Made by a program: the position numbers and the translations under genes
The notes under the pieces: model-generated
What the model was told of the DNA's origin: nothing
What the model saw: only the letters and a program-made list of their open reading frames with translations
Databases searched by the model: none
IMG/VR virus record: IMGVR_UViG_3300033146_004404
Coordinates: 1-64,000 of that record
Source of the DNA: a virus
Taxonomy: Duplodnaviria > Heunggongvirae > Uroviricota > Caudoviricetes
Direction: 5' to 3' (one strand)
DNA: 64,000 bases
Part shown: positions 17,036 to 32,807 of the stretch, piece after piece
How positions within the stretch are numbered: position 1 is the stretch's first letter
How the letters are laid out: each line of letters opens with the position of its first letter

Positions 17036-17779
17036 ATGAGTTTTGAAAAAGCAAAAAGAATCGCACAGATTCTACAAGATAACGGATTCAAAGCTGTCTT
17101 TGCTGGCGGTGCTGTTCGGGATATGGTTCTTGGCGTCGAGCCACATGATTTCGATGTGGCAACTTCAGCAAGACCTGAAGATGTTAAAAGAATTTTTATC
17201 AACTCTAGTTTTGTAGGCGAAAGTTTTGGTGTATCACTTGTTGAAGGCATTGAAGTCGCATCATTTAGAATTGATAAAAGTCAGGTTGATGGTAGAAAAC
17301 CAAACAGTATTGAATTTGCTTCAATGGAAGAGGATTCAAAACGCAGAGACCTGACAATCAATGCTCTGTTCTGGGATCCGATTAGTGAAGAATTCTTTGA
17401 CTTTGTTGGTGGAATGAAAGACATCGAAGAAAAAATAATAAGATTTGTTGGTGATCCAATTAAAAGAATAGAAGAAGATAACTTGAGAATAATGAGAGCT
17501 ATCAGATTTGCTCATAAGTTGAACTTTACTCTTAGCAAGAGTACTACTCTTGCGATTGTTAATAATGCTGAAAAAGTAAAGAGTCTGTCAGGTGATAGAA
17601 TTCTTGAAGAACTAAAGAAGGGTATTGTCTTAGATAAACCTTCTAAGTTTATTTCTCTCTTGTTTTCACTTGGTATTTTGAGACATATTCTTCCTGAAAT
17701 AACTGATCTTTCAGGTTGCGAACAACATATAAAATGGCACCCAGAAGGTGCAACAGCTCAAAAGATTATTTGTGACTAA
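17036..17779 (+). CDS. cca: tRNA nucleotidyltransferase (CCA-adding enzyme), N-terminal head/neck fragment
   Basis: 'GGAVRDMVLGVEPHDFDVAT' class-II nucleotidyltransferase signature and 'RRDLTINAL'. Ends '...WHPEG' followed by a short tail, then stop. Confidence 0.75.
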   Translation: MSFEKAKRIAQILQDNGFKAVFAGGAVRDMVLGVEPHDFDVATSARPEDVKRIFINSSFVGESFGVSLVEGIEVASFRIDKSQVDGRKPNSIEFASMEEDSKRRDLTINALFWDPISEEFFDFVGGMKDIEEKIIRFVGDPIKRIEEDNLRIMRAIRFAHKLNFTLSKSTTLAIVNNAEKVKSLSGDRILEELKKGIVLDKPSKFISLLFSLGILRHILPEITDLSGCEQHIKWHPEGATAQKIICD

Positions 17780-17840
17780 ATATCTGCAAAACAAAAAGTT
17801 GGCGTTGGAAAAATGCTTAACTTTTTTAACGGAGGACTGA

Positions 17841-18512
17841 GTGAAACTAGGAGAAAAAATTCCTTTAGATCCAAAAAATAAAGATCATTACGATAAAACA
17901 AAATATAAAATAACTCCAGGTGACGTTTTTGTTCATACAATGAAGGTTTTGGATAACATCGAATCAAAAGATTGGCGTGTTAGACTTGCTGCTTTATTTC
18001 ACGACATTGGCAAACCTGCAACTGCTGTTGATAAAGGTGAAGGTCGAATTTCAAACAAAGGTCATGATAAAGAAGGCGCAAAGATGGTTTTTGAAATTGG
18101 TAAAAGATTGTCTATGTCAAATGAAAACATTGCCTTAATTTCAAATCTAGTTAAGGATCATATGAACTTTAAAGAAGTTAAGAATATGAAAAGATCAACT
18201 CTTAGACGTTTTCTTTCTAAACCTCATATTGTTGAACTAATCGAACTTTCCAAAGCTGATAGTCTTGGTACTGATTTTGAGCACGATATGTCATTCATTG
18301 ACTTTGCAAAAAATCAGTTGAAAAATTTTGACGATTTGAATGAACCTGTTATGCCAGATCCTTTTGTTGATGGTCATGATTTGATTGCTATGGGCTTCAA
18401 GCCTAGTCCAAAATTTAAAGTTATGTTGGATAAAGTTATGGATTTGCAATTGGAAAATAAAATCAACAGTAAAGAAGAAGGAATCGATTTCATCGTAAAA
18501 AAATTTATTTGA
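17841..18512 (+). CDS. cca: CCA-adding enzyme C-terminal HD-domain fragment
   Basis: GTG start with GGAGGA RBS; 'PGDVFVHT' and 'LFHDIGKP' HD motifs. Continues the HPEG|DVxxHT motif that is split from the upstream ORF. Confidence 0.7.
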   Translation: MKLGEKIPLDPKNKDHYDKTKYKITPGDVFVHTMKVLDNIESKDWRVRLAALFHDIGKPATAVDKGEGRISNKGHDKEGAKMVFEIGKRLSMSNENIALISNLVKDHMNFKEVKNMKRSTLRRFLSKPHIVELIELSKADSLGTDFEHDMSFIDFAKNQLKNFDDLNEPVMPDPFVDGHDLIAMGFKPSPKFKVMLDKVMDLQLENKINSKEEGIDFIVKKFI

Positions 18513-18537
18513 CAAAAAAAGAAGAATATGTTATAAT
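18509..18537 (+). promoter_or_regulatory. consensus early promoter copy 9
   Basis: TTGACAaaaaaagaagaatatgtTATAAT; precedes 18574. Confidence 0.7.
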
Positions 18538-18573
18538 TAAGTATAAGAAAAGTAAAAAGGAGAATGTTTTGAA

Positions 18574-18798
18574 ATGATAATAAATCTTATTGTTTTTATT
18601 GTATTCTTATTTTTTGCCAAGTTTGTTATTTTTAAAGCTTACTCTGCTTTCATGAGGCTGAGCATAAAAGATCCAGCTTGGCAATTAAAAGAAGAAGAGA
18701 AAATGGCAAAGATGGCGAAGAAAGTGGATTTAGAGAAGGGCGTAGAAAACAAAGTTTTCTTAAATAAAGTAAAAAAAGTTTTTAGGCTTTTAAAATAA
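18574..18798 (+). CDS. small membrane protein (possible NfeD-like partner of SPFH protein)
   Basis: N-terminal TM helix and a K-rich tail; immediately upstream of the SPFH-like gene. Confidence 0.35.
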   Translation: MIINLIVFIVFLFFAKFVIFKAYSAFMRLSIKDPAWQLKEEEKMAKMAKKVDLEKGVENKVFLNKVKKVFRLLK

Positions 18799-18894
18799 GT
18801 GATTCTTGGTTTGGGTGCAGGTATGGCTGGAAGTATCTTTGAGACAAATAACGCTGGTTTTTAACAAGTTAAACAGGCAGTAGTTTCTGGTAAT

Positions 18895-19983
18895 ATGTCA
18901 GTAAGAAATGATCCTGGAACGTATGGCCAGATGTTTGGCAATATAACAGAATATAAAATTTCTGATATGAATTACTTTAGCACATCTGATCTTGATGGTG
19001 GTGATGGTGAAGCGGCAGCTCCAATTAAAGTAAGATTTAATGATGGTGGTACTGCGGACATTTCTGGTTCTATAAAGTTTAAGCTGTCACGAAAGACAGA
19101 AAACCAGATAGCGCTACACGAAGATTTCAAAGGTTTTGATGCGGTTCAATCAGATCTTGTAAGACAGGTTTTAACAGAATCACTTATGCAGTCTGCAACG
19201 TTAATGAAGGCTGAGGAGAGTTATTCTACACGAAGAAGTGAATTTACAACACTTGCCGAAATGCAGATTAAAAACGGAATTTATGAAACAGTTTCAGAAG
19301 AGTCAATACAGAAGACTGCTGAAGGAAAAGAGTTTATCGTTCAGGAAGTTAAGGTTAAACTTGACGAAGAAGGTAATCCAATCATAAGAAAAATTTCACC
19401 TTTTAAAAGATATGAAATTGAAGTTCTACAGTTTGTAATTAAAGATATTGACTTTGATTCAACTATTGACAATCTCATAGCGAAGAAGAAAGAAGCAGAG
19501 CAGTTAAAAGTTGTAGGTCAGGCAAATGCTGAAAAAGCAAAACAGGACGCTATAACTGCTGAAGAAACTGGCAAGGCAAGAATTGCTACAGCCACAGCTG
19601 ACGCTGAAGTTAAAAAAGCAACAGCTGTAACACAAGCTCGACAGCTTAAAGAAGTTGCTGAATTGATGGCTACACAGAAATTAGAAGTTGCTAAACTTGA
19701 CGAGCAGAGAGCAAATGCAGAAGCAAACGCTTTACTTGCCAAGAAAATGGCAGATGCTAAAGCAGCAACTTTACTTGTAAAGGCTGGACTTACACCAACA
19801 CAAAGAGCGCAGTTTGAAAAAGATACTGCAATTGGAGTAGCTAAAGCATTGTCAGGAACTCAGTTCCCACAGATAATGAACTTTGGCGTTGATTCAGGAG
19901 TTTCTAGTCCAATGGAAGCAATCGGCTATAATCAAATGTTTGATCTTGTAACAAAGATGAAAGAAACTAAAGCTACTAAATGA
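18895..19983 (+). CDS. SPFH/band-7 (prohibitin-like) domain protein
   Basis: N-terminal globular region followed by a long Ala/Lys/Glu-rich coiled coil, as in stomatin/flotillin-family proteins. Terminator at 19986-20016. Confidence 0.4.
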   Translation: MSVRNDPGTYGQMFGNITEYKISDMNYFSTSDLDGGDGEAAAPIKVRFNDGGTADISGSIKFKLSRKTENQIALHEDFKGFDAVQSDLVRQVLTESLMQSATLMKAEESYSTRRSEFTTLAEMQIKNGIYETVSEESIQKTAEGKEFIVQEVKVKLDEEGNPIIRKISPFKRYEIEVLQFVIKDIDFDSTIDNLIAKKKEAEQLKVVGQANAEKAKQDAITAEETGKARIATATADAEVKKATAVTQARQLKEVAELMATQKLEVAKLDEQRANAEANALLAKKMADAKAATLLVKAGLTPTQRAQFEKDTAIGVAKALSGTQFPQIMNFGVDSGVSSPMEAIGYNQMFDLVTKMKETKATK

Positions 19984-19985
19984 TT

Positions 19986-20562: not shown

Positions 20563-21855
20563 ATGATTGAGGTTAAAGGAAGATACGGAACAGCTAAAGT
20601 TTTTAATGACGTAGTAGAAGAAACTGCGTTAGAACAAATTAAAGTCGTTATGAACCAAAAAATGGTCGATGGCGCAAAAGTTAGAATTATGAGTGATGTT
20701 CATGCAGGAGCAGGATGTGTTATAGGTTATACAGCAACTATGACAGATCGAGTCTGTGTAAATTTAATTGGCGTGGACATCGGTTGCGGAGTTCTTGCAT
20801 ACAAATTGACTAATAAAGTTATTGACTTCAAAAAGTTAGATAGAACTATTAAAGACAGAGTTCCTACTGGATTTAATATTCATTCAGAAATAAATTTGGA
20901 CTTTGTTGGCTCTTTAGGTTCTGAGATGGAAGTTTTTTACAAAAATGTCTTAAATGTTTGTAAAGAAACAAAACAAGATTATGATTATGCTATGAGATCA
21001 CTTGGAACTCTTGGTGACGGAAATCACTATATTGAAATTGATAAGAATATTGAAACAGGCGAATTGTATTTAATGATCCATACTGGGTCAAGAAAATTTG
21101 GTTTCAATGTAGCTAATCACTTTCAGAATCTTGCTGTAGAAAACTGTACTAATAAAGTTGATGTAGGAAAAATCAAAAATGACTTAATAACTTCTTATAG
21201 AGAAGCTGGAAAAGAAAAAGAAATACAGGCAGCATTAGCTGAAATAGATAGTAGGCTTTTTCCTTCTACGAGAACGGTCCCTGAAGGCATGGAATTTATT
21301 CAAGGGAAAGTACGAAAAGATTATTTACGTTCAATGATGGTCGCTCAGCGATACGCAGAACTAAATAGAGAATATATTGCCAGAATTATTTTGAAATATT
21401 CAGATTTATTTGCCTGTGAGAAGATTGAATCAGTTCATAACTATATAGACAGAGGACATGATTTTACTGGCAGTATTATTAGAAAAGGAGCTATTTCAGC
21501 ATTTAGAGGAGAAGAAGTTTTAATACCTTTGAATATGGCTGATGGAACTTTGCTTGGAACTGGTAAAGGAAATCCTGACTGGAATTTCTCTGCACCTCAC
21601 GGAGCAGGACGATTGATGAGTAGAAAGAAAGCAAGAAGGAACATTGACATAACAGACTATCAAGAAAGAATGAAAGATGTCTGGTCTTCTTGCGTAAATC
21701 TTTCAACTATTGATGAAGCTCCTATGGCTTATAAAAATGCTGATGAAATAAAAAAGTATATTGAGCCTACTGTATCAATCACAGCTCATTTGAAACCAGT
21801 TTATAATTTAAAGGCGAATGACTATATGAAAAGATGTTTATTTAAAGGCGAATGA
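20563..21855 (+). CDS. rtcB: RtcB RNA 3'-phosphate/5'-OH ligase
   Basis: 'MSDVHAGAGCVIG', 'GVDIGCG' and C-terminal 'APHGAGR' RtcB signatures. Confidence 0.85.
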   Translation: MIEVKGRYGTAKVFNDVVEETALEQIKVVMNQKMVDGAKVRIMSDVHAGAGCVIGYTATMTDRVCVNLIGVDIGCGVLAYKLTNKVIDFKKLDRTIKDRVPTGFNIHSEINLDFVGSLGSEMEVFYKNVLNVCKETKQDYDYAMRSLGTLGDGNHYIEIDKNIETGELYLMIHTGSRKFGFNVANHFQNLAVENCTNKVDVGKIKNDLITSYREAGKEKEIQAALAEIDSRLFPSTRTVPEGMEFIQGKVRKDYLRSMMVAQRYAELNREYIARIILKYSDLFACEKIESVHNYIDRGHDFTGSIIRKGAISAFRGEEVLIPLNMADGTLLGTGKGNPDWNFSAPHGAGRLMSRKKARRNIDITDYQERMKDVWSSCVNLSTIDEAPMAYKNADEIKKYIEPTVSITAHLKPVYNLKANDYMKRCLFKGE

Positions 21856-22430: not shown

Positions 22431-22772
22431 ATGAAAAAGAAAATATGTGGAAGCTGCAAAGTTGAAAAAAATTATGATGAATTTCATAAGAATCCTGCAA
22501 AAAAGATGGCTTACAGAGTATGTGTAAGGATTGCAGAAAAAAATATCATAGAGAACATTACTTAAAGAATAAGGAAAGATATTATACTCAAAATAGTAAT
22601 AGAAAGAAGATGATTCAAGAAGAATATCTTAACTTCAAAAAAACTTTAATTTGTTCTAAGCGATGATGTTTCTGCTATGGCAGGACAAGGTAGTTCAATA
22701 GAAATGATTCTTAAAGAAATTGAAAAGTGCGATGTTCTATGCTCTAACTGCCATAGAGAATTACGTTTTTAG
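22431..22772 (+). pseudogene. HNH homing-endonuclease pseudogene (frameshifted, internally deleted)
   Basis: 'MKKKICGSCKVEKNYDEFHKN' then, +1 after an A6 run, 'KKDGLQSMCKDCRKKYHREHYLKNKE...', then a third frame gives '...EIEKCDVLCSNCHRELRF*'. Typical phage HNH architecture broken by at least two frame changes. Confidence 0.55.
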
Positions 22773-22867
22773 AAAATAATGCGGGTATAGTATAGTGGTA
22801 TTATTACAGCCTTCCAAGCTGAAAACGAGAGTTCTCTCATGATGCTTTTAATTACATCAAATATTAT

Positions 22868-22896
22868 TTGACAAAAAAAGAATAATATGTTATAAT
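22868..22896 (+). promoter_or_regulatory. consensus early promoter copy 12
   Basis: Identical core; precedes the small ORF and the tRNA at 23050. Confidence 0.75.
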
Positions 22897-23043: not shown

Positions 23044-23049
23044 TAATTT

Positions 23050-23118
23050 GCCGGATTAACTCAAGGAAGAGTGTCAGAATTGAACTGAAAGTCGTGGGTT
23101 CGATTCCCACATCCGGTA
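23050..23118 (+). tRNA. tRNA, anticodon probably UUG (Gln)
   Basis: Acceptor gccggat/atccggt, D-stem actc/gagt, T-arm gtggg-ttcgatt-cccac. The anticodon loop has A33 and a 27:43 mismatch. Confidence 0.5.
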
Positions 23119-23163
23119 TAGACCGTTTGACACTAACAGCAATCAAATGAAGAAAAAACTGCA

Positions 23164-23199
23164 AATTTTAAGGTGTGGGTTCGATTCCCACTACGATTG
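23164..23199 (+). other. tRNA-like minihelix (acceptor stem plus T-arm only)
   Basis: aatttta-ag-gtggg-ttcgatt-cccac-tacgatt-g, with no D or anticodon arm. Confidence 0.35.
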
Positions 23200-23266
23200 G
23201 TCATCGTATGGTGTAATGGTAGCATTAATCATTAACGTGTCGAGACTAAAAAGAAAGGGGAGAAAA

Positions 23267-24159: not shown

Positions 24160-24234
24160 CAGTGTGTGACGGGAAAGGCTTATCCGTGCTCCCCTGGAAG
24201 GAGGAAAATGTGGGTTCGAGTCCCACCTCACTGA
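24160..24234 (+). tRNA. tRNA, anticodon probably UGG (Pro)
   Basis: Acceptor cagtgtg/ctcactg, D-stem acgg/ccgt, anticodon loop cctggaa, T-arm gtggg-ttcgagt-cccac. Confidence 0.45.
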
Positions 24235-24414
24235 CTTTGGTAAATAGTGATAATAGAGAAATATCTCTTGGCACTGGAGAAAGTAATCTGGACGTAAGTC
24301 TTAATTCAATTCCGGAAAAAGAATTAGGATAAGAAGCGATGAAGAAATCGTAAAGGATCATACCCGAGTATAGGGAGACTGCAGGTTCGAATCCTGCGTT
24401 GCCAATATTTTAAT

Positions 24415-24443: not shown

Positions 24444-24464
24444 TAAGTATAAAGAAATATAAAT

Positions 24465-24538
24465 GCCTTAATAGTTTAATTGGCTAAAGCACTGGTCTGT
24501 CAAATCAGAGAGTCCGAGTTCAATCCTCGGTTAGGGCG
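24465..24538 (+). tRNA. tRNA-Asp (GUC)
   Basis: Full cloverleaf: acceptor gccttaa/ttagggc, anticodon loop ctGTCaa, T-arm ccgag-ttcaatc-ctcgg. Directly downstream of promoter copy 13. Confidence 0.8.
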
Positions 24539-24563
24539 TAAACAAAATTTTATGGAGTGTTAG

Positions 24564-25928: not shown

Positions 25929-26001
25929 CGCATCCATAGCACAACGGATTAGTGCAGGAGTCTTGTAAACTTCTGATCTGGGTTCGATTCCCAGTGGATG
26001 C
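25929..26001 (+). tRNA. tRNA-Thr (UGU)
   Basis: Acceptor gcatcca/tggatgc, D-stem gcac/gtgc, anticodon loop ctTGTaa, T-arm ctggg-ttcgatt-cccag. Confidence 0.8.
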
Positions 26002-26004
26002 TTT

Positions 26005-26063
26005 TAGGCACTTACAGCAATCAAAACTATAATTAGAAAGAATGTAAAAAGCAAAGTGTCTAG
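26005..26063 (+). ncRNA. conserved inter-tRNA hairpin element (copy)
   Basis: tAGGCACTtACAGCAATCAAA...AGTGTCTAg; one copy of a recurring element. Confidence 0.4.
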
Positions 26064-26070
26064 TTTTTAT

Positions 26071-26143
26071 GCCGTTTTAGCTCAGTAGGTAGAGCGTCTG
26101 TTTGAAGAGCAGAGCGTCTCCGGTTCAATTCCGGGAGGCGGCA
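26071..26143 (+). tRNA. tRNA-Phe (GAA)
   Basis: Acceptor gccgttt/aggcggc (with G-U pairs), D-arm tagctcagtaggtagagc, anticodon loop ttGAAga, T-arm tccgg-ttcaatt-ccggg. Confidence 0.75.
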
Positions 26144-26146
26144 AAT

Positions 26147-26296: not shown

Positions 26297-26298
26297 TT

Positions 26299-26358
26299 TA
26301 GACATTAACAGCAATCAAAAAAAACCAAACTGTTAATTTGAAAATAAAAAATGTCTAG
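26299..26358 (+). ncRNA. conserved inter-tRNA hairpin element (copy)
   Basis: TAGACATTAACAGCAATCAAA...ATGTCTAG. Confidence 0.4.
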
Positions 26359-26460
26359 TTTTACTGAAAGTTAGTGTCGGGACGAGAGAGCACAGTAGTA
26401 TGAAAATACTTCCAAGCCTTCTCCCAGACTTTTTCTGTAGTCTTAAAAGAACAGTAACAT

Positions 26461-26534
26461 TTCCTTGAAGCTTATCTGGTAAAGCGCCAAATCGTTAATT
26501 TGGAGTCTTCTTGGTTCGAGTCCAAGCAGGGGAG
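26461..26534 (+). tRNA. tRNA, anticodon probably GUU (Asn)
   Basis: Acceptor ttccttg/cagggga (all paired including G-U), D-stem gctt/aagc, anticodon stem ccaaa/tttgg with loop tcGTTaa, T-arm cttgg-ttcgagt-ccaag. Confidence 0.5.
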
Positions 26535-27037: not shown

Positions 27038-27039
27038 AG

Positions 27040-27408
27040 ATGGTAAAACAAGTTATTATAGCGAGGACAGATTTAGATATGTCTTCTGGGAGGATGCCTT
27101 CACAGGTCGCTCACGCATCCATTGCAGTTTTTCTCGATATGGGAAAATGGGATGGAGATAATTTTACGTTGAAAAATGTCGATAAGGATATTCAGTATTG
27201 GATGAAAAAATCATTCACTAAGGTAGTTTTAAAAGTCCATAGTGAAGAAGAGTTGGTTAAACTTCAAGAGTTAGCTAAGGGATTAAAACTCCCGAGCGCA
27301 ATGATTGAAGACGATGTAATGGGTAGAGTTGAGAAAACTGCGCTCGCAATCGGGCCTGCTCTTGTTGAGGATATAGATGCTATAACAGGCAAACTATTCT
27401 TGTTTTAA
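27040..27408 (+). CDS. peptidyl-tRNA hydrolase, PTH2 family
   Basis: 'KQVIIARTDLDMSSGRMPSQVAHASIAVF' matches the PTH2 core (VxVVRTDLxMxxGKxAAQxxHA). Start chosen at ATG 27040 immediately after the upstream stop. Terminator at 27413-27432. Confidence 0.7.
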   Translation: MVKQVIIARTDLDMSSGRMPSQVAHASIAVFLDMGKWDGDNFTLKNVDKDIQYWMKKSFTKVVLKVHSEEELVKLQELAKGLKLPSAMIEDDVMGRVEKTALAIGPALVEDIDAITGKLFLF

Positions 27409-27432: not shown

Positions 27433-27434
27433 AT

Positions 27435-27507
27435 GTGTCTGTCGTATAATGGCTATTACGATGCCTTCTAAAAGCACCAGATCAGGGTTCGAATCCCTGC
27501 AGACACG
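27435..27507 (+). tRNA. tRNA with CUA anticodon (candidate amber suppressor)
   Basis: Perfect acceptor gtgtctg/cagacac, T-arm caggg-ttcgaat-ccctg, anticodon loop ttCTAaa with U33 and A37. The anticodon stem has terminal A-C/C-A mismatches. Confidence 0.4.
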
Positions 27508-27544
27508 ATAGGGCAATGTTGTTCACCCTATAATATTATTTCTT

Positions 27545-27615: not shown

Positions 27616-27617
27616 TT

Positions 27618-27689
27618 GCTGGGAGGGCGTTGGAGTCCCAGATCAGGTTCATAACCTGTTTCTTCGTCGGTTCGATTCCGTCCTCAGCT
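27618..27689 (+). tRNA. tRNA with CAU anticodon
   Basis: Acceptor gctggga/cctcagc, anticodon stem cagg/cctg with loop ttCATaa. T-arm carries a U-U mismatch. Confidence 0.45.
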
Positions 27690-27975
27690 ATAATGAGAAA
27701 ATCAAGTAACGAGAGAATTAACAGTGTAGCTTGGCTGTTCGACAGACCAAAATTCTCTCAGTTTTTTAAGAGGTATTTATGAAAGACACAAAAGTAACTA
27801 TGAGTAACTATGAATATTGATGAGTATAACAAATTAGTCAATATAATTGAAAAGACTTTAATATTTAAAGAGAATTTAAAGACTAAGCTTAAGGAAGCCA
27901 TTGTCTATAAAGAAAAAGAGATAAAATCAATGACTTTCTTTGAACTTATGAAAAGGTATCTAGCTAAATAAATCC

Positions 27976-28228: not shown

Positions 28229-28301
28229 GTACCGTTAGCGTATTGGATGACGCAACAGGCTTCTAACCTGTTAAAACTGGGTTCGATTCCCAGACGGTGC
28301 T
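28229..28301 (+). tRNA. tRNA-Arg (UCU)
   Basis: Acceptor gtaccgt/acggtgc, D-stem gcgt/acgc, anticodon stem acagg/cctgt with loop ctTCTaa, T-arm ctggg-ttcgatt-cccag. Confidence 0.8.
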
Positions 28302-28404: not shown

Positions 28405-28833
28405 ATGATCTTGAAAGAGTTAAAGAAACAGAAAATAATACTTAAGAAAACAAACCCAGTTAGATCTGGTGTTTTAGCGTCTCTTATAGCAGAGACTGAA
28501 AAAACAGCTAAAGTAGCTAAGAGAGAAGCTCTTCAGGAAGATGTTGAAAAAGCAGCAGCAATGCTTACAAAACAGTTACAGAAAACTGTTGATGAAGTTA
28601 AAGTTGGAGAAGTAGTTGAAGGCTATAAACTCGAGATTGCTGAGCTGAAAGATTTTATTCCAGAAACAGTAAATAGAGAGCTTACTACAGAAATGATCGA
28701 AGAAGTCTTAAAGGAATATCCTGAGCCTTCTATGAAGATTATGGGAAAGGTTATCAGTGAATTGAAGAAAAGATATGGTAATAAGATTGATATGGCGATT
28801 GCTTCGAAAGAAGTGAAAGCTCTATTGAGTTAA
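28405..28833 (+). CDS. YqeY / GatB C-terminal-domain-like protein
   Basis: C-terminal '...EEVLKEYPEPSMKIMGKVISELKKRYGNKIDMAIASKEVKALL' resembles the GatB_Yqey motif (E..P...MGKVMG.VM.K..G.ADG..V...V...L). Confidence 0.5.
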   Translation: MILKELKKQKIILKKTNPVRSGVLASLIAETEKTAKVAKREALQEDVEKAAAMLTKQLQKTVDEVKVGEVVEGYKLEIAELKDFIPETVNRELTTEMIEEVLKEYPEPSMKIMGKVISELKKRYGNKIDMAIASKEVKALLS

Positions 28834-29933: not shown

Positions 29934-30887
29934 ATGCCACAAGCTGTAATTGTTTCAGGTAGAAGTAATAGACCTTTATCAAAAGATATTCTATTCAACT
30001 TAGGATTAAAGGGAAAAGAAATTCCCACTATTATAATGGATTTTCCCAACAAAGAAATATTTGTTAAGTACAAAGAAAGTATAAGAGGAAAAGACGTATT
30101 CATAATAAATACATTTAATGGTGATCCTAATAAGGATCTAGTAGAAACTTTAATTTTAGCTGATACAGCATTTACGTCATCAGCTAGAAGGATAACGGTT
30201 GTTCTTCCAATCATTTACGGTTCTAGGCAAGATAGAAAAAGTTCGCTTAGAACTCCTGTCACTATATCAATGATGGCTAAAATCTTCAAGTCAGTTGGTA
30301 TAGATCGCATCGTAACGGTTTCGTTACATGCACCACAATCAGCAGCAGCATTTTTTGCGGCTGGTTTACGCTTTGATAATATCTCTGGAAGTGGAATTTT
30401 TCTTTCAGATATGAAAGAGCTTATGAAGACAGAGAATTTTGTCGTCGTATCTCCTGACGCCGGTGGGCTTTCTAGGGCAAGATACTATGCTAAAGTATTA
30501 GATACTGACATAGCATTTGCTGATAAGAGACGAGGAGCTGACAGAAAATCTGAAATCATGAATCTTGTAGGTGACGTTAAAGGTAGAAATGTTTTTATTG
30601 TTGATGATATGATCGATGGCGGTGGAACAATTATTGGTGTAGCAAATGCCTTGAAAGCAGGTGGAGCAGAGAATGTTTATTGTCTTGCTACACATATGGT
30701 GCTTTCAGGTGATGCTGCTGAAAAGCTGAATAACTCAGTTATTAAAACAATTTATGGCAGTAACTCTATCATAAAAAACAGTCTTCCAAGCAAATTCAAA
30801 ATCAAAAGTCTTGGGCCAACACTTTCTAATGTAATAGAGAAAATTCATAATGATGAAAGCGTTGGTGATGCTTGCGAAGAGTTATAA
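29934..30887 (+). CDS. prs: ribose-phosphate pyrophosphokinase (PRPP synthetase)
   Basis: 'RGKDVFIINTFNGDPNKDLVETLILADTAFTSSARRITVVLPIIYGSRQDRK' and 'VVVSPDAGGLSRA' match Prs signature regions. Confidence 0.8.
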   Translation: MPQAVIVSGRSNRPLSKDILFNLGLKGKEIPTIIMDFPNKEIFVKYKESIRGKDVFIINTFNGDPNKDLVETLILADTAFTSSARRITVVLPIIYGSRQDRKSSLRTPVTISMMAKIFKSVGIDRIVTVSLHAPQSAAAFFAAGLRFDNISGSGIFLSDMKELMKTENFVVVSPDAGGLSRARYYAKVLDTDIAFADKRRGADRKSEIMNLVGDVKGRNVFIVDDMIDGGGTIIGVANALKAGGAENVYCLATHMVLSGDAAEKLNNSVIKTIYGSNSIIKNSLPSKFKIKSLGPTLSNVIEKIHNDESVGDACEEL

Positions 30888-30919: not shown

Positions 30920-30936
30920 AGCATAAGGAGGAAAAA

Positions 30937-31890
30937 ATGGATTTTAAAAGATGGTGTTCAATAGAGAATCATTACCAGACGGCTACTTTCAATCGCTGGA
31001 TTACAAAGCATCCAGAGGTAAATGGTGCCTCCTACAAAGTTACAGAAAAAATTCATGGTGCTAATTTTTCCATTTTGACTTCTCCTGATGGAACTTTAAA
31101 ATTTGCTTCACGAAACAACATTCTTGAAGAGACAGATAAGTTTTATGGATACAAAGAGATCATGTCTAAGTATCAGGATATTATTGACTTCTTACTTAAA
31201 GAGTCAAAAACAATGGGAGAGGAACTTCAGCTATACGGAGAGGTCTTTGGTGGATCAATCCAGAAAGGCGTATTTTACGGAAAAGAAAAACAGTTTCGTT
31301 GGTACTCTTTAAGAGTTAATGGAACTGTAATTGCTCCAATGGAATCAACTCTTAAACTTCAGGAAATCGGAGAACATGAAGCTCCTGTAATTGGTATTTT
31401 TACAATTAAAAAAGATTTACTTGAATTGATTGAAAGAATCGACACAAAATTTAATTCTAAGCTTACTCCTGTTGGCTATGCTGATGAGAATCTTTGTGAA
31501 GGTGTTGTAATTGTTCCTTATGAAAGGAATTTTTACAATCAGAATTCACTTCTTTTAATCAAGAAGAAGAATAATGAGTTCATAGACAAGCAGCGTAAGC
31601 CAAAAGTAATTAAGTCCATTCCTGAAAATATTCAGAATGTGTTTGCTAATTACTCCTCATTTGTCTGTGAGGTACGTACAAACGATTTGTTTTCTAAAGT
31701 TGGAGAATTTACTGAAATGAAAGAGATTTCAAAATTCGCCAAAGCTTATTTCGAAGACGTTGCAGTTGATTACGAAAAAGAATTTTTGACTGAATGGGAA
31801 GAGCTTTCTAAGGCAGATAAGCAAGCAGTCAAGAAGATGATCGGAACAAGAATTTTTATTGAACTGAAAGAGAGTTTGTCAAGAGCTTAA
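30937..31890 (+). CDS. RNA ligase, Rnl2-family nucleotidyltransferase
   Basis: 'IENHYQ' and 'EKIHGANFS' match the T4 Rnl2 N-terminus and motif I (ENHYN...KIHGTNFS). Confidence 0.7.
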   Translation: MDFKRWCSIENHYQTATFNRWITKHPEVNGASYKVTEKIHGANFSILTSPDGTLKFASRNNILEETDKFYGYKEIMSKYQDIIDFLLKESKTMGEELQLYGEVFGGSIQKGVFYGKEKQFRWYSLRVNGTVIAPMESTLKLQEIGEHEAPVIGIFTIKKDLLELIERIDTKFNSKLTPVGYADENLCEGVVIVPYERNFYNQNSLLLIKKKNNEFIDKQRKPKVIKSIPENIQNVFANYSSFVCEVRTNDLFSKVGEFTEMKEISKFAKAYFEDVAVDYEKEFLTEWEELSKADKQAVKKMIGTRIFIELKESLSRA

Positions 31891-31896
31891 TTTTCA

Positions 31897-31936
31897 GAGG
31901 TGAAGGAATATTGCTGGTTCGACTCCAGCCACCTCT
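31897..31936 (+). other. tRNA-like minihelix (acceptor stem plus T-arm only)
   Basis: gaggtg-(10 nt)-ctgg-ttcgact-ccag-ccacctc; no D or anticodon arm. Confidence 0.35.
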
Positions 31937-31937
31937 T

Positions 31938-31983
31938 TAGACATTAACAGCACAAAAAGCGTGGAAGCAAAAAAATATGTCTA
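31938..31983 (+). ncRNA. conserved inter-tRNA hairpin element (copy)
   Basis: TAGACATTAACAGCAcaaaa...ATGTCTAG. Confidence 0.4.
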
Positions 31984-31996
31984 GCCCCTTACGTTT

Positions 31997-32068
31997 CGTC
32001 CGTTAGAAAAATGGTTAATTCGTCAGCTTGCAACCCTGAAGGTGTGGGTTCGATTCCCACACGGATGT
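31997..32068 (+). tRNA. tRNA, anticodon probably GCA (Cys)
   Basis: Acceptor cgtccgt/acggatg, anticodon stem tcag/ctga with loop ttGCAac, T-arm gtggg-ttcgatt-cccac. Confidence 0.5.
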
Positions 32069-32320
32069 TTAAAATAAAATAAAAGGAAAGGACAGAAAGA
32101 ACTGGCTGATAGAAAATTTATTAACATTGAAGGAGTAAAATATTTTTTCGAGACAACTCTTACTGATGATAGTCCTGCTATTGGAATAGCTTACTTGAGA
32201 TCTAGTGATATAACTAGACTTAAAACGAGAAATTCAAAGAAAGCACTTGAAGAGACTTATGGCACACTAAGAAAATATAGTATAATGTTATAGTGTCATA
32301 TATACTCTAAGGAGTATATA

Positions 32321-32521
32321 ATGGTATTTATTGATGATGACATTAAGATCGAAAAAACAGAATACAATGGGCAGACTTATGTTTCAATCAGGAAGTGGTA
32401 TAAAGATAGAACTTCCGGAGAATCTAAGCCTTCTAAAAATGGTATAAATATGTCGATGGAAGCTTGGGAAGAGTTCACAAGTAAAATTAATGAGATAAAG
32501 GAAGATATTGAATTTTCATAA
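32321..32521 (+). CDS. small hypothetical protein
   Basis: ORF with AAGGAG RBS. Confidence 0.4.
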   Translation: MVFIDDDIKIEKTEYNGQTYVSIRKWYKDRTSGESKPSKNGINMSMEAWEEFTSKINEIKEDIEFS

Positions 32522-32522
32522 G

Positions 32523-32807
32523 GGGGCTGTAAAAGGTTTCGACTGGATGGTAAAGTTTGATCGGTGTTTTAAATTTTTATAGTTGACGAAACAGAAACTT
32601 ATTACGCACAGGTTGCGTAACTGACTCTTGCTTCATTTGTTCCTTCCGTGAAGTAAGAGAGAAAGGAAGGATAGTCTGTTTGTTATTCTCTGACGATAAA
32701 CAAGTAATAACAAGAGGTTTTATTATTGATGATTTCCTTTTAAAAAACAATCTTTCAACAGATCAAAATAGTCATACAGGACGAGGGTCCGATTCCCTCC
32801 AGCTCCA
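32523..32807 (+). ncRNA. ssrA: tmRNA (SsrA), CCA not encoded
   Basis: 5' 'ggggctgtaaaaggtttcgactgg' parallels E. coli ssrA 'ggggctgattctggattcgacggg'. 3' 'caggacgagggtccgattccctccagctcca' parallels 'cggacgcgggttcaactcccgccagctcca'. Acceptor has G3:U70. Internal 'ttatagtt|GAC GAA ACA GAA ACT TAT TAC GCA CAG GTT GCG TAA' gives tag (A)DETETYYAQVA, analogous to 'aatagtc|GCA...ANDENYALAA'. Terminator at 32851-32885. Confidence 0.7.

What the first reader, a model, noticed from the sequence alone, without database searches (positions are those of the whole stretch)
17036..32807. tRNA maintenance arsenal: at least 23 tRNAs without encoded CCA, plus CCA-adding enzyme, RtcB, Rnl2-like ligase, PTH2, YqeY-like protein and tmRNA
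Two tRNA arrays (23.0-32.1 kb and 40.5-41.6 kb) encode at least 23 cloverleaf tRNAs. None has a genomically encoded 3' CCA; termini are followed by T-rich sequence. This matches the phage-encoded CCA-adding enzyme (17036-18512). The interval also holds both major RNA-repair ligase types: RtcB (20563-21855, ligating 3'-P or 2',3'>P to 5'-OH) and an Rnl2-family ligase (30937-31890, ligating 3'-OH to 5'-P). It further encodes PTH2 peptidyl-tRNA hydrolase (27040-27408), a GatB/YqeY-domain protein (28405-28833) and a tmRNA (32523-32807). By established knowledge (T4 Pnk/Rnl1 versus PrrC; RtcB versus colicin/RloC-type cleavage), this combination suggests a counter-defence against host anticodon nucleases and ribosome-stalling defences, together with codon-usage adaptation for an AT-rich genome. 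Having both ligase chemistries plus PTH2 and tmRNA in one phage is unusual.
Basis: partly seen in the sequence, partly recalled or inferred. Interest (0 to 1): 0.7.

Follow-up and report, generated by a model that had tools for sequence, protein, structure and literature searches.

The report
Jumbo-phage tRNA and RNA-repair island
A roughly 26-kb stretch of an uncultured ~200-kb phage packs about 20 tRNAs, a tmRNA, two RNA ligases, a CCA-adding enzyme gene split in two, and a Ro60-like protein with Y-RNA-like partners; this is a rich example of a phage toolkit that has already been described.

Summary
Both tRNA arrays, the tmRNA, RtcB, Rnl2, PTH2, YqeY and the CCA-adding enzyme domains pass profile or covariance searches, and no tRNA or tmRNA encodes a 3' CCA.

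Corrections:
- There are 20 solid tRNAs plus 2 doubtful ones, not "at least 23".
- The CCA-adding gene is two cistrons (17036-17779 and 17841-18512).
- One "tRNA" (23141-23199) is the tRNA-like domain of a Y-RNA-like RNA.

- A Ro60-like protein (37031-38503), identified by fold match.
- One long and four short YrlA/YrlB-like RNAs. They show strong covariation and are linked to Ro-like genes in many phages.
- Two metallophosphoesterases and a cREC domain protein, which are candidate 3'-end healers.

No polynucleotide kinase was found. The island is driven by many copies of one perfect sigma-70 promoter cassette.

The counter-defence and translation-maintenance reading is plausible but untested. 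The claim that the combination is unusual is not supported. Jumbo-phage suites combining tRNAs, any mix of RtcB/Rnl1/Rnl2, CCA-adding enzyme, PTH2, cRec and ROT/TROVE are published (PMC7824862), and so are phage tmRNAs (PMC7162821).

Verdict: a new member of a known kind, of moderate interest.

The parts
16987..17015 (+). Copy of the 29-nt sigma-70 promoter cassette, upstream of the CCA-adding enzyme genes
   Evidence: 2 mismatches to TTGACAAAAAAAGAATAATATGKTATAAT
17036..17779 (+). CCA-adding enzyme, N-terminal cistron: nucleotidyltransferase head plus RNA-binding neck, 247 aa
   Evidence: Pfam PolyA_pol 108.9 bits and PolyA_pol_RNAbd 49.3 bits. PDB CCA-adding enzymes at E 1e-42. GGxVRD, DxD, RRD and EDxxR positions are invariant in alignment A1.
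17780..17840 (+). 61-nt intercistronic spacer inside the CCA gene. It follows the TAA stop and carries a weak hairpin, a GGAGG Shine-Dalgarno sequence and a TGA that closes the second frame
   Evidence: Sequence. About 76 extra nt relative to the contiguous homologues P0004-P0006 and L163. No intron family hit and fold z-score -0.7.
17841..18512 (+). CCA-adding enzyme, C-terminal cistron: HD phosphohydrolase domain plus tail, 223 aa, GTG start
   Evidence: Pfam HD 39.6 bits. PDB 3wfo residues 318-501 at E 6e-17. The HD dyad is invariant.
18895..19983 (+). SPFH/Band-7 protein between the CCA and RtcB genes; role unknown
   Evidence: Pfam Band_7 32.2 bits
20563..21855 (+). RtcB RNA ligase (joins 3'-P or 2',3'>P ends to 5'-OH)
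   Evidence: Pfam RtcB 187.6 bits, profile positions 13-425 of 426. The Asp/Cys, Asn-His, His and His-Gly-Ala-Gly-Arg motifs align to P. horikoshii RtcB.
22431..22772 (+). Decayed HNH endonuclease gene, present as fragments in three frames
   Evidence: ORF translations carry CxxC...H...CxxC pieces
22788..22838 (+). Degenerate tRNA(-Gly-like) remnant
   Evidence: Rfam tRNA 25.4 bits, partial, below gathering; sequence
22868..22896 (+). Promoter cassette upstream of tRNA-Gln and the long Y-like RNA
23049..23119 (+). tRNA-Gln(UUG)
   Evidence: 51.8 bits
23126..23245 (+). Long YrlA-like Y RNA. In order: outer stem, ACAGCAA motif, T arm, closed acceptor-like hairpin, D arm. It contains the Rfam 'tRNA' hit 23141-23199.
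   Evidence: Rfam YrlA local hit 23.7 bits. Homologue in L163 has a fully compensated hairpin. Member of alignment A5 and model R1. Covariation.
24160..24235 (+). Atypical tRNA, probably Pro(UGG)
   Evidence: ARAGORN gives an undetermined anticodon. Rfam 34.0 bits with permissive filters. Loop CCTGGAA read.
24464..24539 (+). tRNA-Asp(GUC)
   Evidence: 60.7 bits
25071..25144 (+). tRNA-Glu(UUC)
   Evidence: 66.1 bits
25157..25690 (+). Calcineurin-like phosphoesterase inside tRNA array 1; candidate 3'-end healing enzyme
   Evidence: phrog_547 'phosphoesterase' 112.8 bits. Pfam Metallophos is only 16.3 bits, below cutoff.
25930..26002 (+). tRNA-Thr(UGU)
   Evidence: 63.7 bits
26004..26064 (+). Short Y-like RNA (YrlB-like) filling the spacer between tRNA-Thr and tRNA-Phe
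   Evidence: R1 33.3 bits, E 1.3e-4; short-form alignment A7
26070..26144 (+). tRNA-Phe(GAA)
   Evidence: 60.7 bits
26146..26218 (+). tRNA-Ala(UGC)
   Evidence: 53.9 bits
26225..26296 (+). tRNA with CAU anticodon (Met, fMet or Ile2)
   Evidence: 43.5 bits
26298..26359 (+). Short Y-like RNA directly after the CAU tRNA
   Evidence: R1 38.2 bits, E 1.2e-5; A7
26461..26534 (+). tRNA-Asn(GUU), missed by ARAGORN
   Evidence: Rfam 47.5 bits; anticodon read
27040..27408 (+). PTH2-type peptidyl-tRNA hydrolase
   Evidence: Pfam PTH2 93.5 bits, full length
27434..27508 (+). Amber-suppressor-type tRNA(CUA)
   Evidence: 51 bits
27545..27615 (+). tRNA with CAU anticodon
   Evidence: 38 bits
27616..27691 (+). 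Doubtful tRNA(CAU), ARAGORN only
   Evidence: no Rfam hit at E<=1
28229..28301 (+). tRNA-Arg(UCU)
   Evidence: 57.5 bits
28308..28383 (+). tRNA-Glu(CUC)
   Evidence: 52.8 bits
28405..28833 (+). YqeY/GatB-C-like protein
   Evidence: Pfam YqeY 39.8 bits
28839..28914 (+). tRNA with CAU anticodon
   Evidence: 57.5 bits
29821..29891 (+). tRNA-Gln(CUG)
   Evidence: 50.2 bits
29934..30887 (+). Ribose-phosphate diphosphokinase (Prs)-family protein embedded in the array
   Evidence: Pfam, three domains; NCBIfam TIGR01251 280 bits
30889..30917 (+). Promoter cassette upstream of Rnl2
30937..31890 (+). Rnl2-family RNA ligase (joins 3'-OH to 5'-P)
   Evidence: Pfam RNA_ligase 60.8 bits plus T4_Rnl2_C 33.1 bits. 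T4 Rnl2 2hvq at E 3e-17 with motifs I, III, IV and V aligned.
31896..31937 (+). tRNA minihelix-like element: 7-bp acceptor stem plus T arm only
   Evidence: Rfam tRNA 24.2 bits, below gathering; sequence
31937..31985 (+). Short Y-like RNA; weakest copy
   Evidence: R1 25.8 bits, E 0.0044; A7
31997..32068 (+). tRNA-Cys(GCA)
   Evidence: 57.1 bits
32523..32807 (+). tmRNA with reduced pseudoknots, tag (A)DETETYYAQVA and no encoded CCA
   Evidence: ARAGORN. Rfam 72.9 bits against gathering 47. G3:U70 read. Homologue in L081 has compensatory changes in the acceptor and T stems.
36259..36894 (+). HNH endonuclease
   Evidence: Pfam HNH_5 and HNH; PHROG
36898..36926 (+). Perfect promoter cassette. Its predicted transcription start falls at the 5' end of the next element.
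36931..36989 (+). Short Y-like RNA or leader, 42 nt upstream of the Ro60-like start codon
   Evidence: R1 35.9 bits, E 3.8e-5. Same position in L164, L183, L193, L194, L216, L217, L232 and L081. A7.
37031..38503 (+). Ro60-like protein (TROVE-like helical ring plus vWA with DxSxS MIDAS motif); Pfam DUF2828 plus DUF7788
   Evidence: Pfam. AF2 model pLDDT 85.9, pTM 0.80. Full-length Foldseek hits to phage, frog and Deinococcus Ro60, E 7e-9 to 7e-6. Homologues are annotated 'Ro-like RNA binding protein' in GenBank phages.
39145..39173 (+). Promoter cassette upstream of the phosphoesterase and cREC pair
39193..39912 (+). Metallophosphoesterase-like protein paired with cREC
   Evidence: 55% identical to the Pfam-Metallophos protein of L081 in the same position. 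No Pfam hit of its own.
39934..40356 (+). cREC (cyclic-phosphate-processing receiver) domain protein
   Evidence: Pfam cREC_REC 43.9 bits; syntenic in L081
40560..40644 (+). tRNA-Ser(GCU)
   Evidence: 59.8 bits
40701..40777 (+). tRNA-Leu(UAA)
   Evidence: 49.4 bits
41115..41184 (+). Doubtful tRNA-Trp(CCA) with a reduced D arm, ARAGORN only
   Evidence: no Rfam hit at E<=1
41198..41283 (+). tRNA-Leu(UAG)
   Evidence: 40.7 bits
41494..41579 (+). tRNA-Leu(CAA)
   Evidence: 51.8 bits

Best explanation
This is the translation-maintenance and RNA-repair island of an uncultured myovirus-type jumbo phage. The contig is about 201 kb and carries a gp23-like capsid gene and a tail-sheath gene.

Proposed mechanism; every step is inferred except the presence of the parts.
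1. Host sigma-70 RNA polymerase transcribes the island from many copies of one perfect promoter cassette, probably early in infection.
2. Host RNase P and RNase Z cut the polycistronic transcripts into about 20 tRNAs, a tmRNA and several small Y-like RNAs.
3. No tRNA or tmRNA gene encodes CCA, so every product must receive CCA after transcription. The phage supplies a class-II CCA-adding enzyme, made here as two polypeptides: a nucleotidyltransferase and an HD domain with tail.
4. The tRNAs decode the A/U-ending codons the phage prefers. They also replace host tRNAs that are cleaved or depleted.
5. Broken tRNAs are resealed in two ways. RtcB joins 2',3'>P or 3'-P ends to 5'-OH directly. Rnl2 joins 3'-OH to 5'-P after 3'-end healing by the two metallophosphoesterases, cREC and/or the HD domain. 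A 5' kinase must come from elsewhere in the genome or from the host.
6. PTH2 and the tmRNA clear peptidyl-tRNA and stalled ribosomes.
7. The Ro60-like protein binds the Y-like RNAs through their shared AGAC..ACAGCAA..GUCU stem. This forms an RNP for surveillance or degradation of damaged structured RNA, as with Ro60, Y RNA and PNPase in bacteria and in Thermus phage phiLo.
For: Components present and intact:
- tRNAs and tmRNA.
- Protein domains.
- Catalytic motifs of RtcB and Rnl2.
- Invariant residues of the CCA enzyme kept in both halves, with a strong GGAGG and GTG start for the second half.

CCA ends: no encoded CCA in the window or its relatives, against 22 of 23 in FelixO1.

Codon match.

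Transcription: 26 copies of one 29-nt promoter cassette, all on the + strand, with 0 expected by chance. Sixteen lie between 16.7 and 42.9 kb.

Ro60-like fold.

Y-like RNAs:
- 16 of 19 pairs carry compensatory changes.
- 94.4% of cells are paired, against 65.2% when shuffled and 36-47% when slid.
- 58 hits fall in 35 of 82 Ro-like loci, all on the gene's strand and often within 30-350 nt of the gene. In 74 control loci there were only 5 partial hits.
- The Rfam YrlA model recognises family members below its gathering score.

Conservation: the tmRNA, tRNA arrays, Ro-like gene, Metallophos and cREC are syntenic in a second ~203-kb phage contig. CCA, SLT, RtcB and tRNAs are syntenic in L163.

Literature: the published model for such suites (PMC7824862); the rsr-yrlBA-rtcBA tRNA-repair operon (PMC7790460); the phage Ro60-Yrl-PNPase complex (PMC12135203).
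Against: - No host is known, and no anticodon nuclease or other RNA-targeting defence is known, so 'counter-defence' is inference from analogy.
- No polynucleotide kinase was found in the 64 kb. The only Walker-A proteins are an AAA_5 ATPase and one doubtful motif. The Rnl2 branch is therefore incomplete as seen.
- The CCA gene split could be an inactivating lesion.
- The region shows decay elsewhere: HNH fragments, a tRNA remnant and a minihelix.
- Binding of the Y-like RNAs to the Ro-like protein is not shown. The long copy lies 14 kb from the gene.
- The Ro-like protein does not match Pfam TROVE by sequence.
- 'Early' timing rests only on promoter consensus.
Confidence: 0.65

Rival explanations
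1. Pure translational supplementation. The tRNAs exist only to match the AT-rich phage's codon usage, or to sustain translation after the phage itself shuts off or degrades host RNA. On this view the enzymes are tRNA maturation and recycling factors, not a response to host nucleases.
For: The tRNA set matches the preferred codons AGA, GAA, ACA, GCA, UUA and AUA. The CCA enzyme is needed for maturation in any case. No defence or anti-defence gene was recognised next to the island.
Against: Two RNA ligases, three or four phosphoesterase-type proteins and a Ro-like RNP are repair and surveillance functions that are not needed for simple tRNA supply. tRNAs for less-used codons are also present (GAG via CUC, CAG via CUG). 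The two readings are not mutually exclusive.
Confidence: 0.25
2. Partly decayed island. The split CCA gene is a pseudogene, the odd tRNA-like pieces are remnants, and the phage relies on the host CCA-adding enzyme.
For: A stop codon plus frame change sits inside a gene that is contiguous in all 10 aligned homologues. Decay is visible nearby: an HNH gene in three frames, a tRNA remnant and a minihelix. A relative has a split RtcB.
Against: Both halves keep long open frames and every invariant residue of the family. The split falls in a lineage-specific surface insertion at the domain boundary. The second half has a canonical GGAGG, a 5-nt spacer and a GTG start. All of the roughly 20 tRNAs and the tmRNA need CCA addition.
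Confidence: 0.3
3. The short AGAC..ACAGCAA..GUCUAG elements are not Ro partners. They would instead be cis-acting signals: processing sites or 3'-end structures in the tRNA polycistrons, or an autoregulatory leader of the Ro-like mRNA.
For: They abut tRNA 3' ends by 1-3 nt and end in U runs. One copy starts at the predicted transcription start of the Ro-like mRNA. Apart from the stem and the motif they have little structure.
Against: The same stem and motif form the base of the long forms that carry a YrlA-type tRNA-like domain. That is the relation of YrlB to YrlA, which share the Ro-binding stem (PMC4201824). The tight same-strand linkage to Ro-like genes holds in phages of very different hosts.
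Confidence: 0.3

Closest known systems
Jumbo-phage RNA-repair and tRNA suites (Iyer, Anantharaman, Krishnan, Burroughs and Aravind 2021, Viruses 13:63, PMC7824862)
   Same: tRNA arrays combined with RtcB and/or Rnl2, CCA-adding enzyme, PTH2, cRec domain, calcineurin-like or HD phosphatases and a ROT/TROVE protein, in phages of about 200 kb or more. The counter-nuclease and ribosome-rescue rationale is the same.
   Different: This phage has no close relative in GenBank phages: no megablast hit, at most 41% identity for CCA and about 30% for Rnl2. In the window it lacks the usual polynucleotide kinase, RlaP and 2H enzymes. Its CCA enzyme is split. It adds a tmRNA and five Y-like RNAs interleaved with the tRNAs.
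Salmonella rsr-yrlBA-rtcBA RNA-repair operon (Hughes et al. 2020, PMC7790460; Chen et al. 2014, PMC4201824)
   Same: Ro60, a long tRNA-like Y RNA (YrlA), a short Y RNA (YrlB) and RtcB are encoded together and implicated in tRNA repair.
   Different: There is no RtcA or RtcR here. The Ro-like protein is of the DUF2828 type. The Y-like RNAs score below the Rfam YrlA gathering score (23.7 bits in the window) and carry ACAGCAA instead of the GNCGAA motif. The components are spread over 17 kb rather than sitting in one operon.
Phage Ro60 with Y-like RNAs: Thermus phage phiLo (PMC12135203), mycobacteriophages, FelixO1-like phages
   Same: A Ro-like ring plus vWA protein with Y-like RNAs next to the gene. 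The best fold matches are 9kop and 9l5y. Model R1 finds homologous RNAs 100 nt downstream of Lolly9 gp54 and inside the FelixO1 tRNA array.
   Different: Sequence identity to those proteins is 12-37%. Here the Y-like RNAs are multiplied (one long and four short) and embedded between tRNAs.
T4 tRNA cluster with Pnkp/Rnl1 (against PrrC) and Rnl2 (own knowledge, not tested here)
   Same: A phage-encoded tRNA cluster with small stable tRNA-like RNAs. An Rnl2 homologue with all nucleotidyltransferase motifs. The logic of repairing an anticodon-nuclease cut.
   Different: No Pnkp or Rnl1 was found in the window. RtcB supplies the direct 3'-P/5'-OH chemistry that T4 lacks.
Huge-phage translation genes (Al-Shayeb et al. 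2020, PMC7162821)
   Same: tmRNAs and CCA-adding enzymes encoded by phages above 200 kb.
   Different: No SmpB, aminoacyl-tRNA synthetase or ribosomal protein was seen in the part of the genome available.

Membership tests
tRNA (Rfam RF00005) | Cloverleaf scoring at or above the covariance-model gathering score (29 bits), with a 7-nt anticodon loop | tested here: met
   20 loci score 34-66 bits. 2 further ARAGORN-only calls do not reach E<=1. 23141-23199 reaches 31.9 bits only by deleting the D arm, and it belongs to a Y-like RNA.
tmRNA (RF00023) | tRNA-Ala-like acceptor with G3:U70 and a T arm, an internal tag reading frame ending in a stop, and a score above gathering | tested here: met
   72.9 bits against 47. 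Tag DETETYYAQVA followed by a stop. G3:U70 present. Pseudoknots reduced. Homologue in L081 shows compensatory changes. The partner SmpB was not looked for outside the ORFs scanned.
Class II CCA-adding enzyme | Pol-beta head with GGxVRD, DxD, RRD and EDxxR motifs plus body and tail on one polypeptide; CCA (not poly(A), CC or A) specificity | tested here: inconclusive
   The motifs and domains are present but on two polypeptides. All NCBIfam equivalog hits fall below cutoff because each half is partial. Specificity cannot be read from sequence with these tools.
RtcB RNA ligase | RtcB fold with metal-binding Asp, Cys and His residues and the GMP-accepting His in the HGAGR motif | tested here: met
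   Pfam 187.6 bits, nearly full length. DIGCGV, GNHY, HTGSR and PHGAGR align to P. horikoshii D95/C98, N202/H203, H234 and H404 (residue numbers from own knowledge).
Rnl2 RNA ligase | Adenylyltransferase motifs I (KxHGxN), III, IV and V plus the Rnl2-specific C-terminal domain | tested here: met
   EKIHGANFS, YGEVF, EGVVIVP and IKKKNNEF align to T4 Rnl2. The T4_Rnl2_C domain scores 33.1 bits. NCBIfam TIGR02307 scores 96.6 bits, below its equivalog cutoff of 197.
PTH2 peptidyl-tRNA hydrolase | Full-length match to the PTH2 domain | tested here: met
   93.5 bits, profile positions 1-114 of 115
Ro60 / TROVE-vWA | Ring of HEAT-like helical repeats (TROVE) followed by a vWA domain with a MIDAS DxSxS motif | tested here: met
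   The fold is met: full-length Foldseek hits to 9kop, 9l5y, 1yvr, 1yvp and 2nvo, probability 1.0, TM 0.5-0.58. D290, S292 and S294 are invariant. Sequence membership of Pfam TROVE is NOT met (only DUF2828 and DUF7788), and there is no PDB hit by sequence.
Ro60 / TROVE-vWA | Binds Y RNA through a conserved stem | not testable with these tools
   Only genomic linkage of the Y-like RNAs to the gene is available.
YrlA Y RNA (RF02553) | Score at or above gathering (69 bits); 5'/3' stem plus a tRNA-like module ordered T arm, closed acceptor hairpin, D arm; encoded near Ro60 on the same strand; GNCGAA motif | tested here: inconclusive
   The architecture is met, with covariation. The Rfam score is not met: 23.7 bits in the window and 32-49 bits in relatives. 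The motif differs (ACAGCAA). Linkage is met for the family and for the short copy at 36931-36989. The long copy lies 14 kb from the gene.
cREC domain | Match to Pfam cREC_REC and linkage to RNA ligases or phosphoesterases | tested here: met
   43.9 bits. Paired with a metallophosphoesterase here and in L081. The enzymatic activity is only predicted in the literature.
Stop-codon-recoded (TAG) phage | Genes interrupted by in-frame TAG that become whole when TAG is read as sense | tested here: not met
   No ORF pair is joined across TAG. TAG ends 9 of 81 ORFs of at least 100 aa. This holds despite the presence of a tRNA(CUA).
Group I/II intron in the CCA gene | Covariance-model hit or stable structure in the intervening sequence | tested here: not met
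   No intron family at E<=10. Fold z-score -0.7. The insert is only about 76 nt beyond a protein-coding loop that homologues share.

The most novel reading that the evidence does not exclude
The 50-60-nt AGACNN-NACAGCAA...NNGUCUAG elements have four copies here. They also flank Ro-like genes in phages of mycobacteria, enterobacteria and many uncultured lineages, and no Rfam family matches them. They, together with their long tRNA-like relatives, may be a distinct and widespread phage clade of Y RNAs. On this reading they are excised from tRNA polycistrons by the tRNA-processing machinery and load a DUF2828-type Ro protein. This would tie Ro/Y-RNA surveillance directly to phage tRNA arrays and to RtcB and CCA repair. 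In other phages a non-permuted version of the same module sits inside an otherwise normal tRNA scaffold. That suggests how Y RNAs arose from tRNAs by circular permutation.
Probability: 0.35. Interest if true: 0.55.

Novelty: new member of a known kind. Interest (0 to 1): 0.4.

Why it matters
The island adds a divergent, uncultured jumbo-phage lineage to the catalogue of phages that carry their own tRNA supply, repair and ribosome-rescue kit. At least two ~200-kb genomes belong to this lineage.

It gives three concrete handles for experiments:
- A naturally split CCA-adding enzyme, which tests whether the nucleotidyltransferase and HD/tail modules work in trans.
- A lineage in which every tRNA and the tmRNA depend on post-transcriptional CCA addition.
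- A compact Ro-like/Y-like RNA system interleaved with tRNAs, with a covariance model that also finds unannotated copies in classic phages such as FelixO1.

None of this overturns current views. It refines them.

Tried and rejected
- Megablast of the island against GenBank phages found nothing.
- Exact-protein look-ups of the window's own contig failed three times, and the look-up of P0006 failed too. The source is known only as a 201,184-bp JGI contig.
- RtcB-anchored searches of IMG/VR and of metagenomes returned only 42-46% identical proteins from unrelated ~58-kb gut phages. These were useless for synteny but served later as a control set.
- The peptide-pattern search with the CCA N-terminal half in IMG/VR found no relative.
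- Intron, frameshift and bypass readings of the CCA split were rejected. There is no intron model hit and no stable fold. The second frame is closed by TGA directly before its GTG. Excision between the GTGA(A)ACTA repeats would not restore the frame.
- Amber recoding was rejected for this window.
- A canonical YrlA at Rfam gathering score was not found in the window or in 11 Ro-like loci.
- The structured gap 40357-40559 was examined as a candidate Y RNA. It holds a promoter, a 20-codon ORF and a terminator.
- The anticodon-like arm that Rfam draws in 23141-23199 is not conserved in L163, so it was rejected.
- A Walker-A scan for a polynucleotide kinase was negative.
- PurZ identity of the PurA-like protein could not be decided.

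Full report
**What the window is**

The window has about 33% G+C. Nearly all genes lie on the + strand, except for a block at 47.6-55.8 kb. It encodes a gp23-type major capsid protein (7364-8377, minus strand), a tail sheath (47611-49560, minus strand), ThyX and other phage genes. Two window proteins are identical to proteins recorded on a JGI contig of 201,184 bp (P0003 and P0121). The source is therefore an uncultured myovirus-type jumbo phage.

It has no close relative in GenBank phages. Megablast finds nothing. The best tblastn identities are 41% for the CCA enzyme and about 30% for Rnl2. Three contigs share synteny and serve as comparators:
- a 203-kb JGI contig (L081, with a duplicate fragment in L082);
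- a 10-kb contig (L163);
- an IMG/VR contig (L164).

**Check of the observation: RNAs**

ARAGORN reports 21 tRNAs and a tmRNA. Rfam reports 20 tRNA hits at gathering score and the tmRNA at 72.9 bits.
- Eighteen tRNAs are shared by both tools.
- 24160-24235 (probably Pro-UGG) reaches 34 bits with permissive filters.
- 26461-26534 (Asn-GUU) is a clear Rfam-only call at 47.5 bits.
- That makes 20 solid tRNAs.
- Two ARAGORN-only calls (27616-27691 and 41115-41184) are not seen by the covariance model even at E<=1.
- The remaining 'tRNA' (23141-23199, 31.9 bits) is not a tRNA (see the Y-like RNA section).
- A tRNA remnant (22788-22838) and an acceptor-plus-T-arm minihelix (31896-31937) fall below threshold.

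None of the tRNAs or the tmRNA is followed by CCA. The one apparent CCA, in tRNA-Ala, is C71-C72-A73. Relatives L081 (0 of 10), L163 and L164 behave the same way, whereas 22 of 23 FelixO1 tRNAs encode CCA. Missing CCA is therefore a lineage trait.

The tmRNA has G3:U70, a normal T arm, reduced pseudoknots and the tag (A)DETETYYAQVA. The L081 homologue (tag DEFDYAVAA) differs by compensatory changes in the acceptor and T stems.

**Check of the observation: proteins**

- PolyA_pol head plus RNA-binding neck;
- HD domain;
- RtcB (187.6 bits);
- PTH2 (93.5 bits);
- YqeY (39.8 bits);
- RNA_ligase plus T4_Rnl2_C.

RtcB keeps the Asp/Cys, Asn-His, His and HGAGR motifs of the Pyrococcus enzyme. Rnl2 keeps motifs I, III, IV and V of T4 Rnl2.

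The one factual error concerns the CCA-adding enzyme. The interval 17036-18512 holds two ORFs in different frames. ORF1 ends at TAA 17777-17779. The frame of ORF2 is closed by TGA 17838-17840. ORF2 starts at GTG 17841, five bases after a GGAGG.

Ten homologues are contiguous. The three closest of these with an insertion (P0004-P0006, 55-56% identical) carry a ~32-residue in-frame loop (HPEG-ATV...KIPYDPxNPxHxDxTKYKFNHGDVF) between the neck and the first His of the HD domain. The window has the same loop, interrupted by about 76 extra nucleotides that supply the stop, a weak hairpin and the ribosome-binding site.

The insert matches no intron family and does not fold better than shuffled sequence. 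Both halves keep every residue that is invariant in the family. My judgement is that a two-subunit enzyme is somewhat more likely than a pseudogene (about 0.6 against 0.3), but this is inference.

**What else belongs to the island**

- 25157-25690 is a calcineurin-type phosphoesterase (phrog_547, 112.8 bits).
- 39193-39912 is 55% identical to a Pfam-Metallophos protein at the same position in L081.
- It is followed by a cREC domain protein (39934-40356, 43.9 bits).

The literature predicts that cRec and calcineurin-like or HD enzymes clear 2',3'-cyclic and 3'-phosphate ends for ATP-dependent ligases (PMC7824862). I found no polynucleotide kinase in the 64 kb, nor RlaP or 2H among the ORFs scanned.

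**The Ro60-like protein**

The 490-aa protein at 37031-38503 matches only DUF2828 and DUF7788 in Pfam, and nothing in the PDB by sequence. An AlphaFold model built on 30 homologues (pLDDT 85.9, pTM 0.80) matches Ro60 over its full length. The hits are the Thermus phage phiLo protein (9kop, 9l5y), Xenopus Ro (1yvr, 1yvp) and Deinococcus Rsr (2nvo), at E 7e-9 to 7e-6 and TM 0.5-0.58. The vWA MIDAS DxSxS motif is invariant.

The family is common. It occurs in 710 GenBank phage records, some already annotated 'Ro-like RNA binding protein' or 'RNA-binding protein', including FelixO1. In IMG/VR it sits next to tRNA genes in 38 of 60 loci examined, often directly after arrays of 15-30 tRNAs.

**Y-RNA-like partners**

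The weak Rfam tRNA at 23141-23199 overlaps a local hit to the Rfam YrlA model (23.7 bits). That hit draws a T arm, a closed acceptor-like hairpin and a D arm, which is the permuted tRNA-like module of bacterial Y RNAs (PMC4201824). The homologous element in L163 keeps the T arm, D arm and an outer stem (UUGACAC/GUGUCGA). It replaces the hairpin UACGAU/AUCGUA by CUGAA/UUCAG, a complete compensation.

A shared motif, (U/A)ACAGCAA, follows directly after the 5' strand of the outer stem. This motif led to many more copies.
- Thirteen long forms align well. RNAalifold recovers the outer stem, T arm and acceptor-like hairpin, with compensatory changes in 16 of 19 pairs.
- A covariance model built from them (R1) finds four short copies in the window with filters off. 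These keep the outer stem and the motif but lack the tRNA-like module: 26298-26359 (E 1e-5), 36931-36989 (E 4e-5), 26004-26064 (E 1e-4) and 31937-31985 (E 4e-3).
- In 82 loci carrying a Ro-like gene (0.99 Mb) the model gives 58 hits at E<=1e-3 in 35 loci. All are on the strand of the gene, and many lie 30-350 nt before or after it.
- In 74 RtcB loci (1.54 Mb) it gives only five partial hits, all to one tandem-tRNA site.
- On 30 long forms, 94.4% of cells pair, against 65.2% in shuffles and 36-47% when partners are slid. There are 161 double-change cells against 48. This alignment was fitted to the model, which favours it.
- Sixteen short forms show no broken pair in the 7-bp stem and compensatory changes at 6 of 7 positions.
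- The model also finds a copy 100 nt downstream of the 'Ro-like RNA binding protein' of Mycobacterium phage Lolly9.
- It finds an unannotated copy inside the FelixO1 tRNA array.
- The Rfam YrlA model recognises several members at 32-49 bits, below its gathering score of 69.

I conclude that these are divergent YrlA/YrlB-type RNAs. In the window, three short copies start 1-3 nt after a tRNA or minihelix 3' end and end in a U run, in one case right before the next tRNA. tRNA processing would therefore release them. The copy at 36931-36989 begins at the predicted start of the transcript from a perfect promoter, 42 nt before the Ro-like ATG. Binding to the Ro-like protein is inferred from this linkage and from the Ro60-Y RNA precedent. 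It is not shown.

**Transcription**

One 29-nt cassette, TTGACAAAAAAAGAATAATATGKTATAAT, is a perfect extended -10 sigma-70 promoter. It occurs 26 times within three mismatches, always on the + strand, with none expected by chance. Sixteen copies lie between 16.7 and 42.9 kb. They precede the CCA genes, Rnl2, the Ro-like gene, the phosphoesterase and cREC pair, and several tRNA groups. That the island is read by host polymerase, probably early, is an inference from consensus.

**How it most likely works, and alternatives**

The stepwise mechanism is given under Best explanation. In short, the island supplies tRNAs, matures and repairs them, rescues stalled ribosomes, and monitors damaged RNA through a Ro-like RNP.

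The tRNAs fit the phage's codon preferences (AGA 74% of Arg, GAA 78% of Glu, AUA 38% of Ile, UUA 31% of Leu). Codon supplementation is therefore certainly part of the story. Whether host nucleases are the selective force cannot be told from sequence.

The closest cellular analogue is the Salmonella rsr-yrlBA-rtcBA operon, which is induced by broken tRNAs (PMC7790460). The closest viral description is the survey of jumbo-phage RNA-repair systems (PMC7824862).

**Verdict**

The finding is real and biologically coherent, but it is a new member of a known kind. Its added value lies in the corrections (tRNA count, split CCA gene), in the completion of the parts list (phosphoesterases, cREC, Ro-like protein, Y-like RNAs, promoter cassette), and in a testable Y-like RNA family with a usable covariance model. 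Interest is 0.4.

Noticed in passing
window 4426-61592, + strand, 26 sites (for example 4426, 8427, 24415, 36898, 56714): There are 26 near-identical copies of a 29-nt perfect extended -10 sigma-70 promoter cassette, TTGACAAAAAAAGAATAATATGKTATAAT. All are on the + strand and none is expected by chance. The invariant spacer suggests recognition by more than sigma-70 alone, or recent spread.
   Followed up: partly
window 27434-27508: An amber-suppressor-type tRNA(CUA) scores 51 bits, with a Glu/Gln-like 5' half. No gene in the window is interrupted by an in-frame TAG, and TAG is used as a stop. Its role is unexplained. Another Ro-like locus (L183 3506-3579) also carries a tRNA(CUA).
   Followed up: partly
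L163 3901-6098: In a related contig the RtcB gene is split into two ORFs (164 aa and 265 aa), separated by about 900 nt that hold a 44-codon ORF. This may be an intron, an intein remnant or a homing-endonuclease insertion. Rfam found no intron at gathering score.
   Followed up: partly
L173 7527-7640; L185 7529-7644 and 8363-8482; L168 2756-2874, 2887-3001, 5645-5772; L228 around 5560-5700: These are non-permuted relatives of the Y-like RNA, 114-128 nt long. They have a normal acceptor stem, D arm and T arm, but the anticodon arm is replaced by a covarying hairpin (often with a GUUU loop) followed by UAACAGCAAU. They look like circular permutations of the window's long form, and several sit about 90 nt from a Ro-like gene.
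   Followed up: partly
L244 8443-8572 (NC_005282.1, about 24578-24707): Salmonella phage FelixO1 has an unannotated YrlA-like RNA (R1 57.6 bits) between tRNA-Asp and tRNA-Lys. It lies 1 kb downstream of ORF42, annotated 'RNA-binding protein', which is a Ro-like homologue.
   Followed up: yes
window 22431-22845: An HNH endonuclease gene is broken into three frames and is followed by a degenerate tRNA-Gly-like remnant. This points to decay of mobile-element and tRNA genes at the start of array 1. An intact HNH gene lies at 36259-36894.
   Followed up: partly
window 31896-31937: A 42-nt tRNA minihelix has a 7-bp acceptor stem and a T arm but no D or anticodon arm. It sits directly before a short Y-like RNA. 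Such minihelices are substrates of RNase P and CCA-adding enzymes (own knowledge).
   Followed up: no
window 6210-7334: A short (374 aa), divergent adenylosuccinate-synthetase-family protein. Its best PDB matches are cellular PurA at E 2e-14. Whether it is a PurZ-type enzyme of 2-aminoadenine genomes could not be decided.
   Followed up: partly
window 29934-30887: A Prs (ribose-phosphate diphosphokinase) homologue sits between tRNA-Gln and Rnl2. Phage Prs-like enzymes have been linked to NAD+ reconstitution (own knowledge). No Nampt-like partner was seen in the window.
   Followed up: no
L183 4579-5024: A GOLLD RNA (198.8 bits) lies next to tRNAs and 1 kb upstream of a Ro-like gene in a 179-kb viral contig.
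   Followed up: no
window 32523-32807 and L081 4565-4858: Both phage tmRNA tags end in VA or VAA (…YAQVA, …YAVAA) rather than the common …ALAA. Tagged proteins may be handled differently from host-tagged ones.
   Followed up: no
window 23147-23268: The long ORF 23147-24127 probably starts at TTG 23269, after an AAAGGGGAG ribosome-binding site. Its first 40 codons overlap the Y-like RNA, and family matches begin at residue 45.
   Followed up: partly
window 12926-13807 and 33283-34374: Two radical-SAM proteins of unknown role, the second with a SPASM domain. A radical-SAM gene also lies upstream of the tmRNA in L081.
   Followed up: no
window 56772-58220 and 61613-63205: An AAA_5 (MoxR-like) ATPase and a DUF2201 metallopeptidase/vWA-like protein lie near each other. 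Between them is a 579-aa ThyX with a long N-terminal extension (59659-61398).
   Followed up: no
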